A stretch of 64,000 bases of DNA from Octopus sinensis. Lineage: Eukaryota. The stretch spans positions 18,414,001 through 18,478,000 of the forward strand of contig NC_042999.1 of the NCBI RefSeq assembly GCF_006345805.1. The letters run 5' to 3'. A program made the position numbers. Shown here piece by piece: positions 6,001-60,000 of the stretch. Positions within the stretch are counted from its first letter, which is position 1. Every line of letters begins with the position of its first letter.

Positions 6001-9000
6001 AGAAGTAAATCATTCCAAAGAATATAGTCTGGTGAAATGAGTATTTGAAATTTGTTTTAGGAACATTTTTAATCAACACGACGGAGAGTAACCGGAAGGA
6101 AAATATTTTCTTGAGAAGATATCATGCCAGAATATGGAATAACACACATGAAAATAAATTATATATGTTAAGATAACAATGGAGCCTTTACATATTCAAT
6201 TGTCTGATTCAGATAGCAGCCTAACCTCTTCATATCTTATCCTAATGTATTACAAAAGGATGGATTATGTGTACGATATAGTTCTAGATATCAAAATAAT
6301 ATCGTTAAACATAGGTGCTGTGTTTGGTGCAATCTAAGTGCAGCTACGTTGACGTACGCGCATGATACTACCAGCTATAAGTAGGAAACCATAATATATT
6401 CATGAATACCAGAGCGTGGGTAGGCAGTGGCTGGTGGTGAAAACGAAAATATTATAGATAGTATATATAAAGAAACGAAACATTTAGAATCAATCTGTAG
6501 TTTTATGAATATTAAAAAGCAATAACAAAACAACAAGACCATAAACAAAATACAAGCAAACCTTGAAACTATAATTGGGACTAGAATATATATTATAATG
6601 AAAACCTAAAATAAAATACATTTTAAATCTCTCGATATATACAAAGAAGTTATGAAGCCGTATAATTTATATAAATCATTAAATGATATTAGATGTTGTT
6701 CACTGTTATTTTCCTATTTTATATGATATTCTTGTGCAAAGAACGTGGAATAAACATAAATCAAAAATGTTGGGATCTACACAGAATTATTGCCATGCAA
6801 GCTAATGTTGTTAACGCTTTGCGTTAGTTTCTCTTGCATTTGACTCGGCTTTAACTGGACTCAGATTTGGAACGTGGGGAAAAAGATTGATGCTTTGGAA
6901 ACAAGAACATACTTTAGATTGTTCCAGGATCAGATTGCTCACCGTATCAATGCATATTTATTTGCAACAGATATATATTGAATTGGCAATTTTCTAATTT
7001 AGCTTGCTGTCTAGATGTGATACCATTTTACGGTATTAAGGTACTTAAGCTGCGGCATCAATTATTATCGGCAGATAATAAAGACAATGTTCGGATATAT
7101 ATAATAGTTTAATAACGAATGACTTCAGTCAACATAGGATGAATGAAAACTAAAGGTATGGTATTACGATATATATATAGAGGTATGGCATTCTCGTTGT
7201 GAATAATTTACTTCATGGAACTGGGTAACAAAATGCAGCCCCACTTATAAGGAAACGTAAAATCATTAGCCGTAAACAATAGCGTTTATATTTTAATGCA
7301 TAAGATATGTACAGTAATACGGCACTTTCTGAAGACCCACATTAGGCAGCCCGAGTTTGCGAGTTTTCTTCTTCAAGCACAAATTCCAAATTTTGTACGA
7401 AGTGCAAAAGTTACTACTACCATAATAAATGCCTCTGCGTGTTACCGAGAAATTGATAGAGAGCGAAAAAAAGTGTCTTCTAAGCAAACAACTCTGAACT
7501 TGTTTTTTGAAAAGAAATCTACAAGTCCGTCTACGAGTGCTTGCGAATCGGTGATCGCGTCTGCAACTAATGGTGCGCGCCAATCAAGTGCGAGGGAAAG
7601 TAGTTCACAACATAAATAATAATATTTTTTATCATAAATGATCTTGCAATTCTTTCTACTTTAAGTAAAATATTCTTTGCATTCTTTTATTGCTATTTAT
7701 TTTACGAGTTTTATAAATTGTATATGAAAAATATTTTTCTGGGTACGAATTACGATTCATGACATTGCTACAATGGGAAACTATTGCTCTGCTTTACGAT
7801 TTTTCGCTTCGCGAGCGGTCTCCAGGAACAAATTAACTCATATATCGAGAGATTACTATATATGTCTGTGAATGTGTGTGCGTGGGTGTGTGTTTGTGTT
7901 TGTCCTACTGCATCGCTTGTCAACTGATGCTGGTGAGTTTATGTCTTCGTATATTAGTCTATCGGCAAGACCGTCATAATAAATCTTAGGCTTAGAAAGA
8001 ATAGGTCCTGGGGTGGATGTCTTCGACTATCAACCCTTTAAGGCGGTGCTTCATCATGGGCGCAGTCATATGACTGAAACAAGTAAAAGAATAAAAGAAT
8101 ATATATGTACATATTTGTATGATATTTCACGTGATACAAATTATATTCATGATGTATTGAGAGCATATTCGCTACCAGGGAAAGTGAAATAACTGTCTGA
8201 GATTAATGCCTGCAGTGCCTATAAATTTGTAAGTCTTTTCTTTGCATGAGTCAAGGATGGCAAGCATACATAGTGATGGCACCTATAAAAGCGGAATCTC
8301 CTATCAGCGTATTTGCTTCTCTCTCAGACACAAGACTTTCTTCTATTGAATTTCATTTCAAGTATCAGCTGGTCATAAATCCGTTCAGGAGAAAATTTAA
8401 CCGCTCTCGCAAATCAAAGAGGGTTCCATTAGATAGGATATTCCCATGGGTGCTAATTAACATTCATTTTCTTTTATAGTTATTGGAATTCTTTAAAACT
8501 TTTTATCATCTCGTTATTGGGGCTTATTATTAATCTAAAATATAGGTATAATCAATTCTAACCAGTTCTTCGTGGCACCATGATGACTAAAGGGACTCAA
8601 TATGCGTGCATACATACGTGCATACATATAAATATATTTCTATGTGTATATATTCATATATATGTGTGTGTGTGTGTACATGTATATGCATATATATATA
8701 TATATATTATATATATATATATATATATATATATATATATATATATATATATATATATATATATATACAATATGTTACATTACTCGGTAGTCAAGATAAA
8801 ACTCTGAGTTTCAGATGCCGAAGTGGAAATCCACAACACCATCTCTTCGGTTATCTGGCTATTTGAAAACGTTATGAAAAAATACCGTTAAAAATGAAGG
8901 GAAATTACTCTGTTATAACTCTGCTTTGCCTGCGTACTTATACATCGCTCGCATTTTTCGTCATAAAAATTATATAAAAATACATAAAAATATATAAAAA

Positions 9001-57000: not shown

Positions 57001-60000
57001 GGAAGAGATTTAATAGCTTCAATACGAAAATGAGGCATCACTTTCTTTCGGTTACTTTCTTGTTTTAGATTTCATTATTCAAAAATATATAAAAAATATA
57101 TGAGATCGTATGAACTTCAATTTTGAGACCTAATAACCTTTTTTTCTTTATCTGCACATCGAAAAATGAGTGTGGAATCAAGTTACTTTTCAGTTTATAT
57201 GTACTTGATAATACTCAGTCTCCAAATGTTTTCAGGTACTCTCGTATTGAACTCGGTCTTTATACAAAAAAGCAATTTACACTAAAACCAGGCACTAAGA
57301 TTTACCGAAAAATATTTATTTCGTTTCTTATATTTTCATTTAATTTGTTATGTCTTGGGACTTATTTATTATTTGCTTTTCATGTACGTGCCTTTATGGT
57401 TATTCTTCAATTCTTCAGCATTAAGGCAATATTCCATAAGAAACTAATTATAAAACATTGAAGCTTATTGTTGTTCATACTATGCCTTAGCAATAAAATG
57501 CACTCGTTTCATTTATATAATTAAAAGTTAATATTTTTTGTGAATGGAAAAATAAACGGTACAGAGTACGTTTAATATATTCACATCCAATGTATACAAG
57601 TGCTTTTTCGAGAACTCGCCAGAAATATTGTCGTGTCAGTGCTTCATAAAAAATGCAATAAAAATTTATTCAAATATGTATATTAGGAGTCAAACATGAA
57701 GATTACATTTTTTCTTATTTTTTAACTATCATTAATGTGCATTCCAAAAAGTTCAGTCATAGAAAATTGTCGAAAAGACTTAAGGAACTTGATGAGTGAC
57801 ATACCATTTCCTGGTTTTCTACTTTAAAATTTTAAGATGAATATAATGAAAGCAGTTTATTGCGATGCCTTTAAAATCATTCATTGTTTGATGTATGTAC
57901 TTGTCATTTCATGTCATTTCTTTGTTGTATCATAAAATCCTTTCTTAAACAACACGACAGGTCTGCCACGTTGACTTGCCGAACAATCAGCCCTGACAAA
58001 TTATAAGTAAGACAAGTTTTAAATCTGTCGAAACAATAAGCTAAGCCTGTTATATGTTCAAATGTATATTATACATATATTTAAACAAAAATGGTACTTC
58101 ACATGTAGAGAAAATAATCTGCAGCAGCTGAATGTAAGGTCTGATATATGCAGAAATACACCTACGGTAAAAGCGATGACTTTAATATCGAGCATCGACA
58201 AGGTATCGATAAAAACAACACATGCAACAATATACAAATATTCGCGCAAATATGTATGTATATATATATATCTATATATATATATATATATATATATATA
58301 TAACTAATGTAGGATAAAATTCTTTTCGGGAAAAAAATTTTATCAATGGCCAGCATATCAAAAAATACCTTTAAAGGTTACATTTATAAATACTTTACAA
58401 GATAAGGGCAAACGAAAAATTCTAATGCCAAATATGCCGAAAAAAAGACAAAACTTTTCAATAACCATTATAATTTATGCGTCTCGAAACAAACCGATAG
58501 AAATCTCTAAAAAGTCCGTTATTACCGTATTGGTTCAATTTCGGGGTTAATTAATAATAAATGTTCCCCTCTTCAGCGGCAAATACGCGAGATATAAGTG
58601 AAATACTTACTCATACCCACGGAAAACGCAAGCACTAAGTCTTTTGCCGTTGAAGAGGGGAAAATTTCATATTAATTAACCCCGAAATTGGACCAATACG
58701 GTAATAACGAACTTTTTAGAGATTTCTATCGGTTTTTTTCGAGACGCATAAATTATAATGGTTATTGAAAAGTTTTGTCTTTTTTCGGCATTTTTGGCAT
58801 TAGAATTTTTCTTTTTCCTTATCTTGTAATTATATATATATATATATATATATATATATATATATATATATAGAGAGAGAGAGAGAGAGAGACAGAGATA
58901 GATAGATAGACATACATACATACATACATACATACATACATACATACATACATACATACATACATACATATATATATATGCATACATATATAATTATATA
59001 TATATGTTTATATATATATATATAATATATAGGTGGTGTGTGTGTGTGTGTGTGCGTGTGTATATAGGGGGGTGTCTGTGCTTAGTTTTTCGAACAAGAC
59101 ATCTCTACTGGATTCCGGGCATTTATTTGCCTGTAGTTGTGCAAAGTGTCTCAATTAACTGTGAGAATTGTGTTGTTTTTGGATTGCATCTCGCCTCCAA
59201 AAATAGTCGGATTTTTTCACCATTTTTTGTGAAATTTGTGGAAGCTCTGTTCCGGTTGCTGTGTCCCTGTTGCTATTTGGAATACCAGTTGGCCTGGAGT
59301 ACGTAGTGATCGGAAAATTTGTGTCAAACGTTAACCGTTTTACTCAGAGTTTCTCAAAATTTTTTTAATCCCAACAGTTCAGTATTTTCATTCCAAATAG
59401 ATAAACTTTAACCAAAGACGGAGAAGAGAAACATTGTCAAATAGAATTATTTAATTATTATAATTTAAAATTGATGAAATGCTACTTCATCATACTCATC
59501 ATTATTTACATCAAAAACCCAGAAAATCTATTTTGTTAAATGTTATCTATTTGGAATAAGCCAACTTAAGCGTTGAGATTAACAAATTTCTGAAGACCTA
59601 GCTTTCAATAAAATGGCAAACGATAGGAGTAATCCCTTATTACTTACCACTGTAGAAATTTCTCGTTGTTCAACGAGCTCTTAAAACGATTTACCAGCGT
59701 ATGGAGAAGATGAAAATTGTCAGATAGAGATGTCTAATTATTATAAATTAAAATTCAGGAAATGCTACTTAACTATACCCCTTATTATCTTTTTTCTCTC
59801 TCTTCTCTTCACACGTGACCGCCGGTCAACTAGCCTTTCGGCTTCTGAGCACCGCCACGACAACCTCGATTTCTTCGTATGCCGTAGGGCATTATTTTCA
59901 AAATACGCCAGCTAAGCTAAGTTGAACTGTCTAAAGTCGTAAGACACCTGTTGTTGTTGTTTTTGTCCGATTATTATTATTATTTTTTTTTTATTTATAT

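What the first reader, a model, noticed from the sequence alone, without database searches (positions are those of the whole stretch)
8766..58829. Recurrent 'tails-out' head-to-head insertions with one longer 3' tail, across apparently unrelated HHR-bearing families
Seen: seven loci consist of two inverted copies of an element's 3' end, both pointing outward, with one arm running further than its mirror. These are 8766-12840 (extra ~69 nt), 12911-13745 (~100), 38438-38692 (~55), 44405-44612 (~148), 46870-47042 (~67), 52547-52765 (~67, with TSD) and 58302-58829 (~93). Six sit in (TA)n and most contain an HHR-like motif. Known: Penelope-like elements (PLEs) have direct or inverted pseudo-LTRs with a 3' tail and HHRs; L1 twin priming gives inversions, usually without large overlap. 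Inference: in this genome the default PLE outcome is two-ended priming, with one DNA end priming at the RNA terminus and the other at an internal site on the same or a second (possibly concatemeric or dimerised) RNA. This would systematically seed hairpins in microsatellites.
Basis: partly seen in the sequence, partly recalled or inferred. Interest (0 to 1): 0.85.

Follow-up and report, generated by a model that had tools for sequence, protein, structure and literature searches.

The report
Known Penelope-like retroelement hairpin insertions
Most of these loci are the already described way Penelope-like retroelements insert, as two back-to-back truncated copies with an optional extra piece on one outer end, usually inside TA repeats, so this is a clear example and not a new phenomenon.

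Summary
Partly confirmed, and largely known. Four of the 7 loci (8768-12839, 38430-38691, 52547-52763, 58303-58829) are real head-to-head inverted copies with a one-sided outer extension of 47-92 nt. A fifth (44408-44612) is one copy with a zero-spacer palindrome at its inner end. At 12894-13746 the arms are symmetric, a TA tract lies between them, and the 'tail' is unverified. At 46871-47037 the inverted repeat is no better than chance.

The large locus is a Hydra-clade Penelope-like element (PLE): its motifs match the clade, its fold is reverse transcriptase/telomerase-like, and it sits in (TA)n. A hammerhead motif is present in 3 of 7 loci, not 'most'. Six of 7 loci sit in (TA)n, as stated. 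The families are unrelated in sequence, as stated.

The literature already describes inverted 5'-truncated copies, a tail often at one end only, (TA)n targeting, junction palindromes, cleavage and extension of both DNA strands, and two reverse-transcription start sites that define the tail.

Within the window, the short end of the large element recurs in an independent solo fragment, and both long ends that could be checked recur in independent copies. Three of 5 short ends show target microhomology. Three further copies are solo or near-solo, so 'default outcome' is not shown. Genome-wide tests could not be run.

The parts
8690..8767 (.). (TA)n tract directly abutting the short 3' end of the minus-strand PLE copy
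8768..11110 (-). L1 copy A: Hydra-clade PLE, 5'-truncated by roughly 13-37 codons plus the 5' UTR. The frame is open to 9051. The copy has the short 3' end, with no extension.
   Evidence: 698-codon open frame 11147..9051. 903 homologues, the 120 listed being 652-815 aa. tblastn alignments start at homologue residue 14-38 at 11111. RT/telomerase fold.
11111..12767 (+). L1 copy B: inverted, more strongly 5'-truncated copy, starting near homologue residue 250. It carries one single-base frameshift near 11551.
12768..12839 (+). L1 one-sided 3' extension ('tail'), 68-72 nt, followed by (TA)n at 12840. It is not verified by an independent copy.
   Evidence: No similarity to the N-termini of homologues.
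12673..12747 (+). Hydra-type hammerhead-like motif in the 3' UTR of L1 copy B, mirrored at 8788-8862 on the minus strand. The core is CCGAAGA (U4 to C) and helix III is ACTC-A-GAGT. The predicted cut at 12735/12736 is 32 nt before the short end and 104 nt before the long end.
   Evidence: Motif layout compared with the Hydra HHR table in the supplement of PMC8557442.
47738..47870 (+). Solo, diverged 3' fragment related to L1 (66-74% identity) with a decayed hammerhead. It ends at the same element position as L1's short arm, directly at (TA)n.
12894..13064 (-). L2 left arm, an AT-rich repeat bounded by (TA)n on both sides
13112..13644 (+). L2 right unit. Its last ~160 nt mirror the left arm (88-89%) and end at the same position. 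The inner part contains a GC-richer SINE-like piece.
13664..13746 (.). Claimed L2 extension. It is separated from the arm by (TA)9 and there is no evidence that it belongs to the element.
38430..38691 (.). L3 hairpin: arms 38430-38504 and 38568-38642, spacer 63 nt, one-sided extension 38643-38691. (TA)n lies on both sides. No hammerhead and no second copy in the window.
44408..44612 (.). L4: near-perfect palindrome 44408-44461 with zero spacer, then 151 nt to the next (TA)n. Best read as one copy with a snap-back type palindrome at its inner end.
46871..47037 (+). L5: single 167-nt fragment in (TA)n, not a hairpin. It carries a Hydra-type hammerhead-like motif with helix I CTGT/ACAG, core CCGATGA, a weak helix II, and box GAAACTCAGAGT at 46988. 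Its end lies 37 nt after the predicted cut.
52533..52546 (.). L6 target-site duplication, left copy (14 bp). The right copy is at 52764-52777.
52547..52763 (.). L6 hairpin insert: extension 52547-52615 (minus-sense 3' end), arms 52616-52667 and 52713-52763 (96%), centre 52668-52712
56444..56620 (-). Solo copy of the L6 family. Extension, arm and centre are collinear, with no inverted partner and no (TA)n.
58303..58642 (-). L7 long copy: extension 58303-58394 (92 nt), arm 58395-58583, and unpaired 5' part 58584-58642
58643..58829 (+). L7 short copy. It ends 92 nt before the family's true 3' end and abuts (TA)n. Its hammerhead core is mutated to TTGAAGA.
58516..58588 (-). Canonical type I hammerhead motif in the L7 long copy: CTGAAGA, 4-bp helix II, GAAA, 3-bp helix III, 6-bp helix I. 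The predicted cut is at 58528/58527.
   Evidence: Strict descriptor: 1 hit in the window against 1 hit in 300 simulated windows. The MFE fold gives the three-way junction.
24019..24341 (+). Second copy of the L7 family. It has the full extension and the same 3' terminus, a hammerhead damaged by a deletion, and a 38-nt perfect zero-spacer palindrome (24019-24056) at its 5' junction.

Best explanation
These loci are integration products of Penelope-like retroelements. One is an autonomous Hydra-clade element (L1). The others are short non-coding families that the same kind of machinery presumably mobilises.

The GIY-YIG nuclease opens both strands, usually in a (TA)n tract. Each free 3'-OH primes reverse transcription of an element RNA, so the two cDNAs grow towards each other and are joined head to head after 5' truncation. 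This leaves both 3' ends pointing outward.

Reverse transcription can start at the distal end of the template or at a more internal site. One arm therefore carries an optional extension, the published 'tail', which here is 47-92 nt.

Shown here: the inverted architecture, the orientation of the copies, (TA)n flanks, the single-event origin of L6, and recurrent end points. Inferred: priming at both ends, the use of two start sites, and trans-mobilisation of the small families.
For: L1 as a Hydra-clade PLE:
- Its translation carries the clade's RWK, DKT, CxCX5C, CxxC and CxH motifs and has no cysteine pair between GIY and YIG (invariant columns). These are the features listed in PMC8557442 section 11.
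- The AlphaFold model has mean pLDDT 80.6. Its best PDB fold matches are reverse transcriptases, and 11 of the top 15 are telomerases.
- Atlas neighbours carry GIY-YIG, RVT_1 and HTH_animal.

Orientation and single-event origin:
- ORF orientation in L1 and hammerhead strand in L7 show that the 3' ends point outward.
- The 14-bp duplication encloses both arms of L6.

Recurrent end points:
- L1's short end coincides with the end of the diverged solo fragment at 47870.
- The long ends of L7 and L6 coincide with those of the independent copies at 24341 and 56444.

Literature:
- PMC8557442: an inverted 5'-truncated copy, a tail often at one end only, and (TA)n targeting. [quoted passage not shown]
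- PMC3846280: head-to-head is the most frequent arrangement, with a 31-bp optional tail.
- PMC11167929: both strands are cleaved and extended, and two reverse-transcription start sites bracket the tail.
Against: - Only L1 has coding evidence, and only L1, L5 and L7 have hammerhead motifs. L3, L4 and L6 have no marker linking them to PLEs.
- The extensions are longer than the published 30-40 bp.
- L7's arms are no more alike (93.7%) than each is to the independent copy at 24 kb (94.9% and 93.8%). A shared event is therefore not demonstrated for L7.
- L4 and the 24-kb copy have zero-spacer palindromes whose short arm does not start at a 3' end. That fits snap-back better than two-ended priming.
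- Three of 5 short ends show microhomology with the target, whereas the in vitro study reports initiation without homology. Microhomology is equally expected from end joining.
- Rfam found no hammerhead anywhere, including the canonical L7 motif.
Confidence: 0.6

Rival explanations
1. Snap-back self-priming. A single target-primed cDNA is made from the true 3' end. At its 5'-truncation point the reverse transcriptase folds back and copies its own cDNA outward. The second arm is then joined to the other DNA end by microhomology wherever synthesis stops.
For: Zero-spacer palindromes occur at 44408-44461 and 24019-24056. The short spacers of 59-66 nt reported in L3, L6 and L7 are loop-like. Three of 5 short ends show microhomology. 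PMC3846280 infers self-priming from palindromes at inverted junctions.
Against: L1 has a 685-nt unpaired centre. L1's short end recurs in an independent solo fragment, which a random stop would not predict. PMC3846280 itself notes that self-priming on a sense template would give tail-to-tail arrangements, not head-to-head.
Confidence: 0.2
2. Two independent insertions in opposite orientation into the same (TA)n hot spot, or one copy inserting next to another.
For: In L2 a (TA)n tract separates the arms and both arms have the same end. The SINE-like pair at 443-1523 is only 71% alike. L7's arms are no closer to each other than to a third copy. The window has 63 TA tracts.
Against: There is no TA remnant at the inner junctions of L1, L3, L6 or L7. 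A 14-bp duplication encloses both arms of L6. L1's arms are 99.6% alike and L6's arms 96%, against 81-85% to the other L6-family copy.
Confidence: 0.08
3. The small hairpins without markers (L3, L4, perhaps L6) are foldback or TIR-type DNA elements unrelated to PLEs.
For: A genuine TIR element with ~25-nt terminal inverted repeats sits in a TA tract at 47053-47521. L3, L4 and L6 have no hammerhead and no similarity to L1.
Against: Each has a one-sided extension inside its insertion boundaries. The L6 family has a solo copy that is collinear through extension, arm and centre, without a second arm. L6's 14-bp duplication is longer than, to my recollection, DNA transposons usually make.
Confidence: 0.1
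4. The 1.66-kb near-perfect palindrome of L1 is an assembly artefact from a chimeric palindromic read.
For: The arms are 99.6% alike. PMC8557442 notes that such structures cause assembly problems.
Against: The structure is asymmetric, with a 685-nt centre and a one-sided extension. It lies internal to the window with different flanks. It has 5 substitutions and 1 indel between the arms.
Confidence: 0.02

Closest known systems
Hydra clade of Penelope-like elements (Craig et al. 2021, PMC8557442)
   Same: [quoted passage not shown] RWK, DKT, CxCX5C, CxxC and CxH motifs, with no CCHH. Insertion in (TA)n. A hammerhead near the 3' end with helix III ACTC-N-GAGT and a T before GAA. The supplement records an attached inverted 5'-truncated copy for one family, and 'no pLTR' for a cephalopod family.
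   Different: The hammerhead core here reads CCGAAGA instead of CTGANGA. The 3' extension is 68-72 nt, against the general 30-40 bp. No direct pseudo-LTR is seen, because both copies are 5'-truncated. The hammerhead sequence differs from every Hydra-clade entry shown.
Canonical Penelope/Poseidon insertion architecture (PMC3846280; PMC11167929)
   Same: Head-to-head inverted copies, an optional tail at the 3' end of one arm, palindromes at inverted junctions, variable target duplications, an AT-rich target, and both strands cut and extended in vitro with two reverse-transcription start sites bracketing the tail.
   Different: A different PLE clade. The arms here are truncated element bodies or whole small elements, not pseudo-LTRs. 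The tails are longer. Three of 5 short ends show target microhomology, whereas in vitro initiation was reported as homology-independent.
Animal non-LTR retrozymes (PMC7229834; bioRxiv 10.64898/2026.07.22.740005)
   Same: The L7 family is a small, AT-rich, non-coding repeat with a type I hammerhead, as expected for a non-autonomous PLE derivative.
   Different: Retrozymes are defined by head-to-tail tandem arrays. The two L7-family copies here are one inverted pair and one solo copy. No tandem copy occurs in the window.
L1 twin priming (recalled from general knowledge; only search listings seen)
   Same: The second DNA end primes on element RNA, producing an inverted segment.
   Different: Twin priming inverts one part of a single copy with little overlap. 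Here the same sequence is present twice.
TIR MITEs and foldback elements
   Same: Hairpin-forming inverted arms, often in TA-rich DNA.
   Different: A one-sided extension, solo collinear copies, ORF and ribozyme polarity pointing outward, and a 14-bp duplication.

Membership tests
Penelope-like elements, Hydra clade (L1) | Reverse transcriptase related to telomerase RT | tested here: met
   The model has pLDDT 80.6. The Foldseek PDB top hits are RTs, and 11 of the top 15 are telomerases. Sequence-only tests failed: Pfam found 0 families and PDB sequence and profile searches found 0 hits.
Penelope-like elements, Hydra clade (L1) | C-terminal GIY-YIG nuclease without the CCHH pair, a CxCX5C linker, and flanking CxxC and CxH | tested here: met
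   Read from the translation and from invariant columns C547, C549, C555, Y568, G588, R597, H601, C650 and C653. GIY-YIG Pfam is weak in one homologue (E 0.0057, below the cut-off). Atlas clusters carry PF01541 on 26-50% of members.
Penelope-like elements, Hydra clade (L1) | RWK motif, with DKG changed to DKT | tested here: met
   R27 and W28 are invariant and followed by K. K105 is invariant within DKT. Criteria come from PMC8557442 section 11.
Penelope-like elements, Hydra clade (L1) | Short element (<3 kb) inserted in (TA)n | tested here: met
   A 2343-nt 5'-truncated copy lacking roughly 13-37 codons, with (TA)n on both sides.
Penelope-like elements, Hydra clade (L1) | Canonical hammerhead ribozyme | tested here: inconclusive
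   Helices I, II and III and the GAAA box are arranged as in published Hydra HHRs. However, the core has C at position 4 and one extra T before GAA. There is no Rfam hit and activity is unknown.
Penelope-like elements (general architecture) | Direct pseudo-LTR from partial tandem | tested here: not met
   No direct repeat of the 3' region occurs in or next to L1. Both copies are 5'-truncated, so this is weak evidence. The supplement lists 'no pLTR' for several cephalopod families.
Penelope-like elements (general architecture) | Inverted 5'-truncated copy with an optional tail at one end | tested here: met
   Met in L1, L3, L6 and L7. The tail is verified as element sequence by independent copies for L6 and L7 only.
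Non-LTR retrozymes (L7 family) | Type I hammerhead in a small non-coding repeat | tested here: met
Non-LTR retrozymes (L7 family) | Head-to-tail tandem arrangement and circular RNA | tested here: not met
   No tandem copy occurs in the window. Circular RNA cannot be tested with these tools.
TIR MITE | Symmetric terminal inverted repeats reaching both ends, with a short fixed duplication | tested here: not met
   L1, L3, L4, L6 and L7 have one-sided extensions. L6's duplication is 14 bp. L2 would pass on symmetry alone.
L1-type twin priming | Inversion of part of one copy without large duplication | tested here: not met
   The arms duplicate 50-1660 nt.

The most novel reading that the evidence does not exclude
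In this genome a PLE machinery mobilises several unrelated short non-coding RNAs and frequently integrates them as hairpins by priming from both ends of the break. The second end does not use a fixed protein-defined start site. Instead it anneals by microhomology, often (TA)n against an internal UA-rich patch. This would explain tails of variable length (47-92 nt, or about 150 nt if L4 is counted) and would seed TA microsatellites with hairpin-forming DNA.
Probability: 0.25. Interest if true: 0.5.

Novelty: new member of a known kind. Interest (0 to 1): 0.3.

Why it matters
The window is a compact natural example of the still incompletely understood PLE integration pathway. It holds an almost undiverged Hydra-clade head-to-head insertion, and a small hairpin enclosed by one target duplication. 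It also gives family-internal comparisons showing that both the long and the short 3' termini recur.

These data fit the 2024 in vitro result that both strands are cut and extended and that two start sites define the tail. They add a hint that target microhomology may choose the inner site. That hint is testable genome-wide.

For annotation, such loci should be labelled as PLE insertions and not as MITEs, miRNA hairpins or assembly errors.

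Tried and rejected
- Rfam at E<=1 over the whole window, and at E<=10 over 58290-58840 and 12400-13750, gave no hammerhead hit, even for the canonical L7 motif. It returned only spurious miRNA and sRNA matches to TA repeats and long hairpins, for example MIR841 at L6. 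I therefore treat Rfam as uninformative here and used a descriptor of my own with simulated controls.
- The relaxed descriptor is not significant on its own. It gave 5 sites, against 0-5 (mean 2.0) in 20 simulated windows.
- Folding energies of the hammerhead regions are no better than shuffles, with z from -0.1 to -1.0.
- Pfam found nothing in the L1 protein at E<=10. PDB sequence and profile searches found nothing.
- I tested whether L1's 3' UTR or tail encodes the missing N-terminus, as in pseudo-LTR overlap. There was no match, best E 0.24.
- No shared 3' sequence between families was found.
- Arm-versus-third-copy identity was uninformative for L7.
- No PLE coding sequence occurs elsewhere in the window.
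- No literature link between twin priming and PLEs appeared beyond incidental mentions (listing only).
- Not possible: any genome-wide test. Supplements of the bioRxiv preprint were closed and were not seen.

Full report
**Observation**

I re-read all seven loci and searched for inverted repeats.

- **L1 (8768-12839)** is a large palindrome. Arms 8768-10425 and 11111-12767 agree at 1652 of 1658 columns, with 5 substitutions and one 1-base indel. The centre is 685 nt unpaired. The right arm runs 68-72 nt further (12768-12839) before (TA)n resumes, while the left arm abuts (TA)n directly.
- **L3, L6 and L7** have the same geometry on a small scale.
  - Their arms are 77 nt at 88%, 49 nt at 96% and 143 nt at 95%, with spacers of 63, 66 and 59 nt.
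  - Their one-sided extensions are 47-49, 61-69 and 92 nt.
- **L4** is a 33+33 nt palindrome with no spacer, followed by about 150 nt.
- **Chance control.** For L3, L4, L6 and L7, none of 400 random repeat-free windows of equal length reached the observed self-inverted score.
- **L5 fails that test.** 137 of 400 random windows scored as high, so it is not a hairpin.
- **L2** has real arms (88-89%). They end at the same element position, a (TA)n tract lies between them, and the supposed extension lies beyond a further (TA)9. Asymmetry is therefore not shown.

Six of the seven loci are bounded by (TA)n, as stated. The window holds 63 TA tracts covering 2767 bp and 24 intervals of 83-4071 nt bounded by TA tracts. 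Only those holding L1, L3, L4 and L7 contain a strong internal inverted repeat, and L2's arms lie in two adjacent intervals.

**What L1 is**

The minus-strand copy carries a 698-codon open frame.

- Pfam and PDB sequence searches were blank.
- The protein has 903 relatives. The 120 listed are 652-815 aa and share up to 51% identity.
- Language-model neighbours are annotated HTH_animal, DUF8422, GIY-YIG and RVT_1.
- An AlphaFold model built from 23 aligned sequences has mean pLDDT 80.6. It matches reverse transcriptases, and telomerases take 11 of the top 15 places.

The translation and the invariant alignment columns show RWK, DKT, CxCX5C, GIY...YVG without an internal cysteine pair, CxxC and CxH. 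This is the motif set by which Craig et al. define the Hydra clade of PLEs. They describe that clade as short, hammerhead-bearing and almost always inserted in (TA)n (PMC8557442, section 11 read in full).

Homologue alignments begin at residue 14-38 at position 11111, so copy A lacks only the extreme N-terminus and the 5' UTR. Copy B starts near residue 250. The ORF directions show that both 3' ends point outward.

**Hammerheads**

Rfam found none, not even in a 551-nt search around L7. I therefore used a structural descriptor.

- With a core of at most 1 mismatch and no bulges, the only hits in the window are the two arms of L7.
- A stricter version (exact core, helices of at least 5, 4 and 2 bp) finds only L7's long arm. 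It gave 1 hit in 300 simulated windows.
- A relaxed version adds both arms of L1, but that version is not significant on its own.

L1's motif matches the layout printed for Hydra-clade hammerheads in the paper's supplement, with helix III ACTC-N-GAGT and a T before GAA. The difference is that the core reads CCGAAGA.

The box GAAACNCNGNGT occurs 4 times, against 0.17 expected: in both L1 arms, in L5 and at 59342. L5 has the same layout with a weak helix II and again a CCGA core. L2, L3, L4 and L6 have nothing.

So 3 of 7 loci carry a hammerhead-like motif. In L7 its strand confirms the outward polarity.

**Other copies of the same families in the window**

Self-BLAST found three further copies.

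- **47738-47870** is a diverged solo 3' fragment of an L1-like element. It ends, against (TA)n, at the same element position as L1's short arm.
- **24019-24341** is a second copy of the L7 family. It has the full 92-nt extension and the same terminus, plus a perfect 38-nt zero-spacer palindrome at its 5' junction.
- **56444-56620** is a solo copy of the L6 family in which extension, arm and centre are collinear.

Three conclusions follow:

- The extensions of L6 and L7 are genuine element sequence with a conserved terminus.
- L1's short end is also a recurrent terminus.
- In each of these three families, the other copy in the window is not a full hairpin, so 'default outcome' is not supported.

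No similarity links the families. Only the 3 within-family pairs among 66 comparisons exceeded z=4.

**Single event or two?**

L6 is enclosed by a perfect 14-bp duplication, so both arms arrived in one integration. L1's arms are 99.6% alike and L6's arms 96%, against 81-85% to the third L6-family copy.

L7's arms (93.7%) are no closer to each other than to the 24-kb copy (94.9% and 93.8%). That is uninformative if the family expanded in a burst. L2 looks more like two insertions, or a junction filled with TA.

**Short-arm junctions**

I compared the 8 target bases beyond each short arm with the element's own next 8 bases.

| Locus | Matches | Positions in the long copy matching as well |
|---|---|---|
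| L1 | 7 of 8 | 7 of 1721 |
| L6 | 6 of 8 | 1 of 113 |
| L4 | 6 of 8 | 4 of 170 |
| L7 | 1 of 8 | 326 of 332 |
| L3 | 3 of 8 | 77 of 179 |

Microhomology therefore marks 3 of 5 short ends. It fits internal priming by the second DNA end. It fits end joining after snap-back, or a later slippage deletion, equally well.

**Mechanism and comparison with the literature**

[quoted passage not shown] It also reports a microsatellite bias.
- PMC3846280 (passages) calls head-to-head the most frequent arrangement. It describes a 31-bp optional tail and palindromes at inverted junctions, and proposes self-priming.
- PMC11167929 (passages) shows in vitro that a Poseidon protein cleaves and extends both strands. 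It initiates at two internal RNA sites whose interval equals the tail, and does so without homology to the target.

In the passages I saw, the 2024 paper does not itself derive the inverted architecture from them.

My best reading, at 0.6, is target-primed synthesis from both ends with alternative start sites. Snap-back self-priming (0.2) accounts better for L4 and the 24-kb copy. The window cannot separate the two.

**Verdict**

The structures are real at 5 of 7 loci, and at 4 of them as described. The large one is a new member of a described PLE clade showing that clade's described insertion signature.

What departs from the published descriptions:

- Longer extensions, 47-92 nt.
- The same architecture in small non-coding families.
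- A recurrent U4-to-C hammerhead core in L1 and L5.
- A microhomology hint at the short ends.

Genome-wide tabulation, long reads and empty-site alleles are needed and could not be done here.

Noticed in passing
47053-47521: A 470-nt element with ~25-nt terminal inverted repeats lies between two (TA)n tracts. It looks like an ordinary TIR MITE, so DNA transposons also use TA tracts in this window.
   Followed up: partly
443-862 and 1066-1523 (relatives at 2100-2516, 7857-8156, 33057-33504, 45119-45572): An inverted pair of a ~420-nt SINE-like repeat, only 71% alike and 200 nt apart. These are probably two independent insertions and not a PLE-type hairpin.
   Followed up: partly
17493-17836 and 55842-56189 (partial copies at 5195-5378 and 42285-42487): A tRNA-headed SINE of about 340 nt. 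The copy at 17.5 kb lies between a TG/TA microsatellite and a (TA)n tract and has no inverted partner.
   Followed up: no
18336-19034: Symmetric ~265-nt inverted arms (73% alike) around a block of degenerate TTAGGG-like repeats, not in (TA)n.
   Followed up: no
31239-31405 with 31203-31238 / 31406-31441; inverted copy at 30275-30450: A ~167-nt repeat flanked by a ~36-nt direct repeat (92%), which may be an unusually long target duplication. A second copy lies in opposite orientation 0.8 kb away (89%).
   Followed up: partly
12685-12691, 8844-8850 (-), 46968-46974: The hammerhead-like motifs of L1 (both arms) and L5 share a CCGANGA core (C where U4 is expected), although the two elements are otherwise unrelated. 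This may be a lineage-specific variant or a shared decay. Activity is unknown.
   Followed up: partly
59342-59353 (-), within 59329-59622: A fourth copy of the Hydra-type helix III box (GAAACTCTGAGT) lies inside a weak (60%) self-inverted region. It may be another decayed PLE 3' fragment.
   Followed up: no
38343-38356: The outer ~12 nt of L3's short arm are repeated 85 nt upstream inside the TA tract. This suggests a tract-internal duplication or the remnant of an earlier copy.
   Followed up: no
52614-52765: Rfam scores the L6 hairpin against a plant miRNA model (MIR841: 69 bits against a gathering score of 200, E 3e-12). The match reflects hairpin shape only, and such loci could be mis-annotated as miRNA precursors.
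   Followed up: yes
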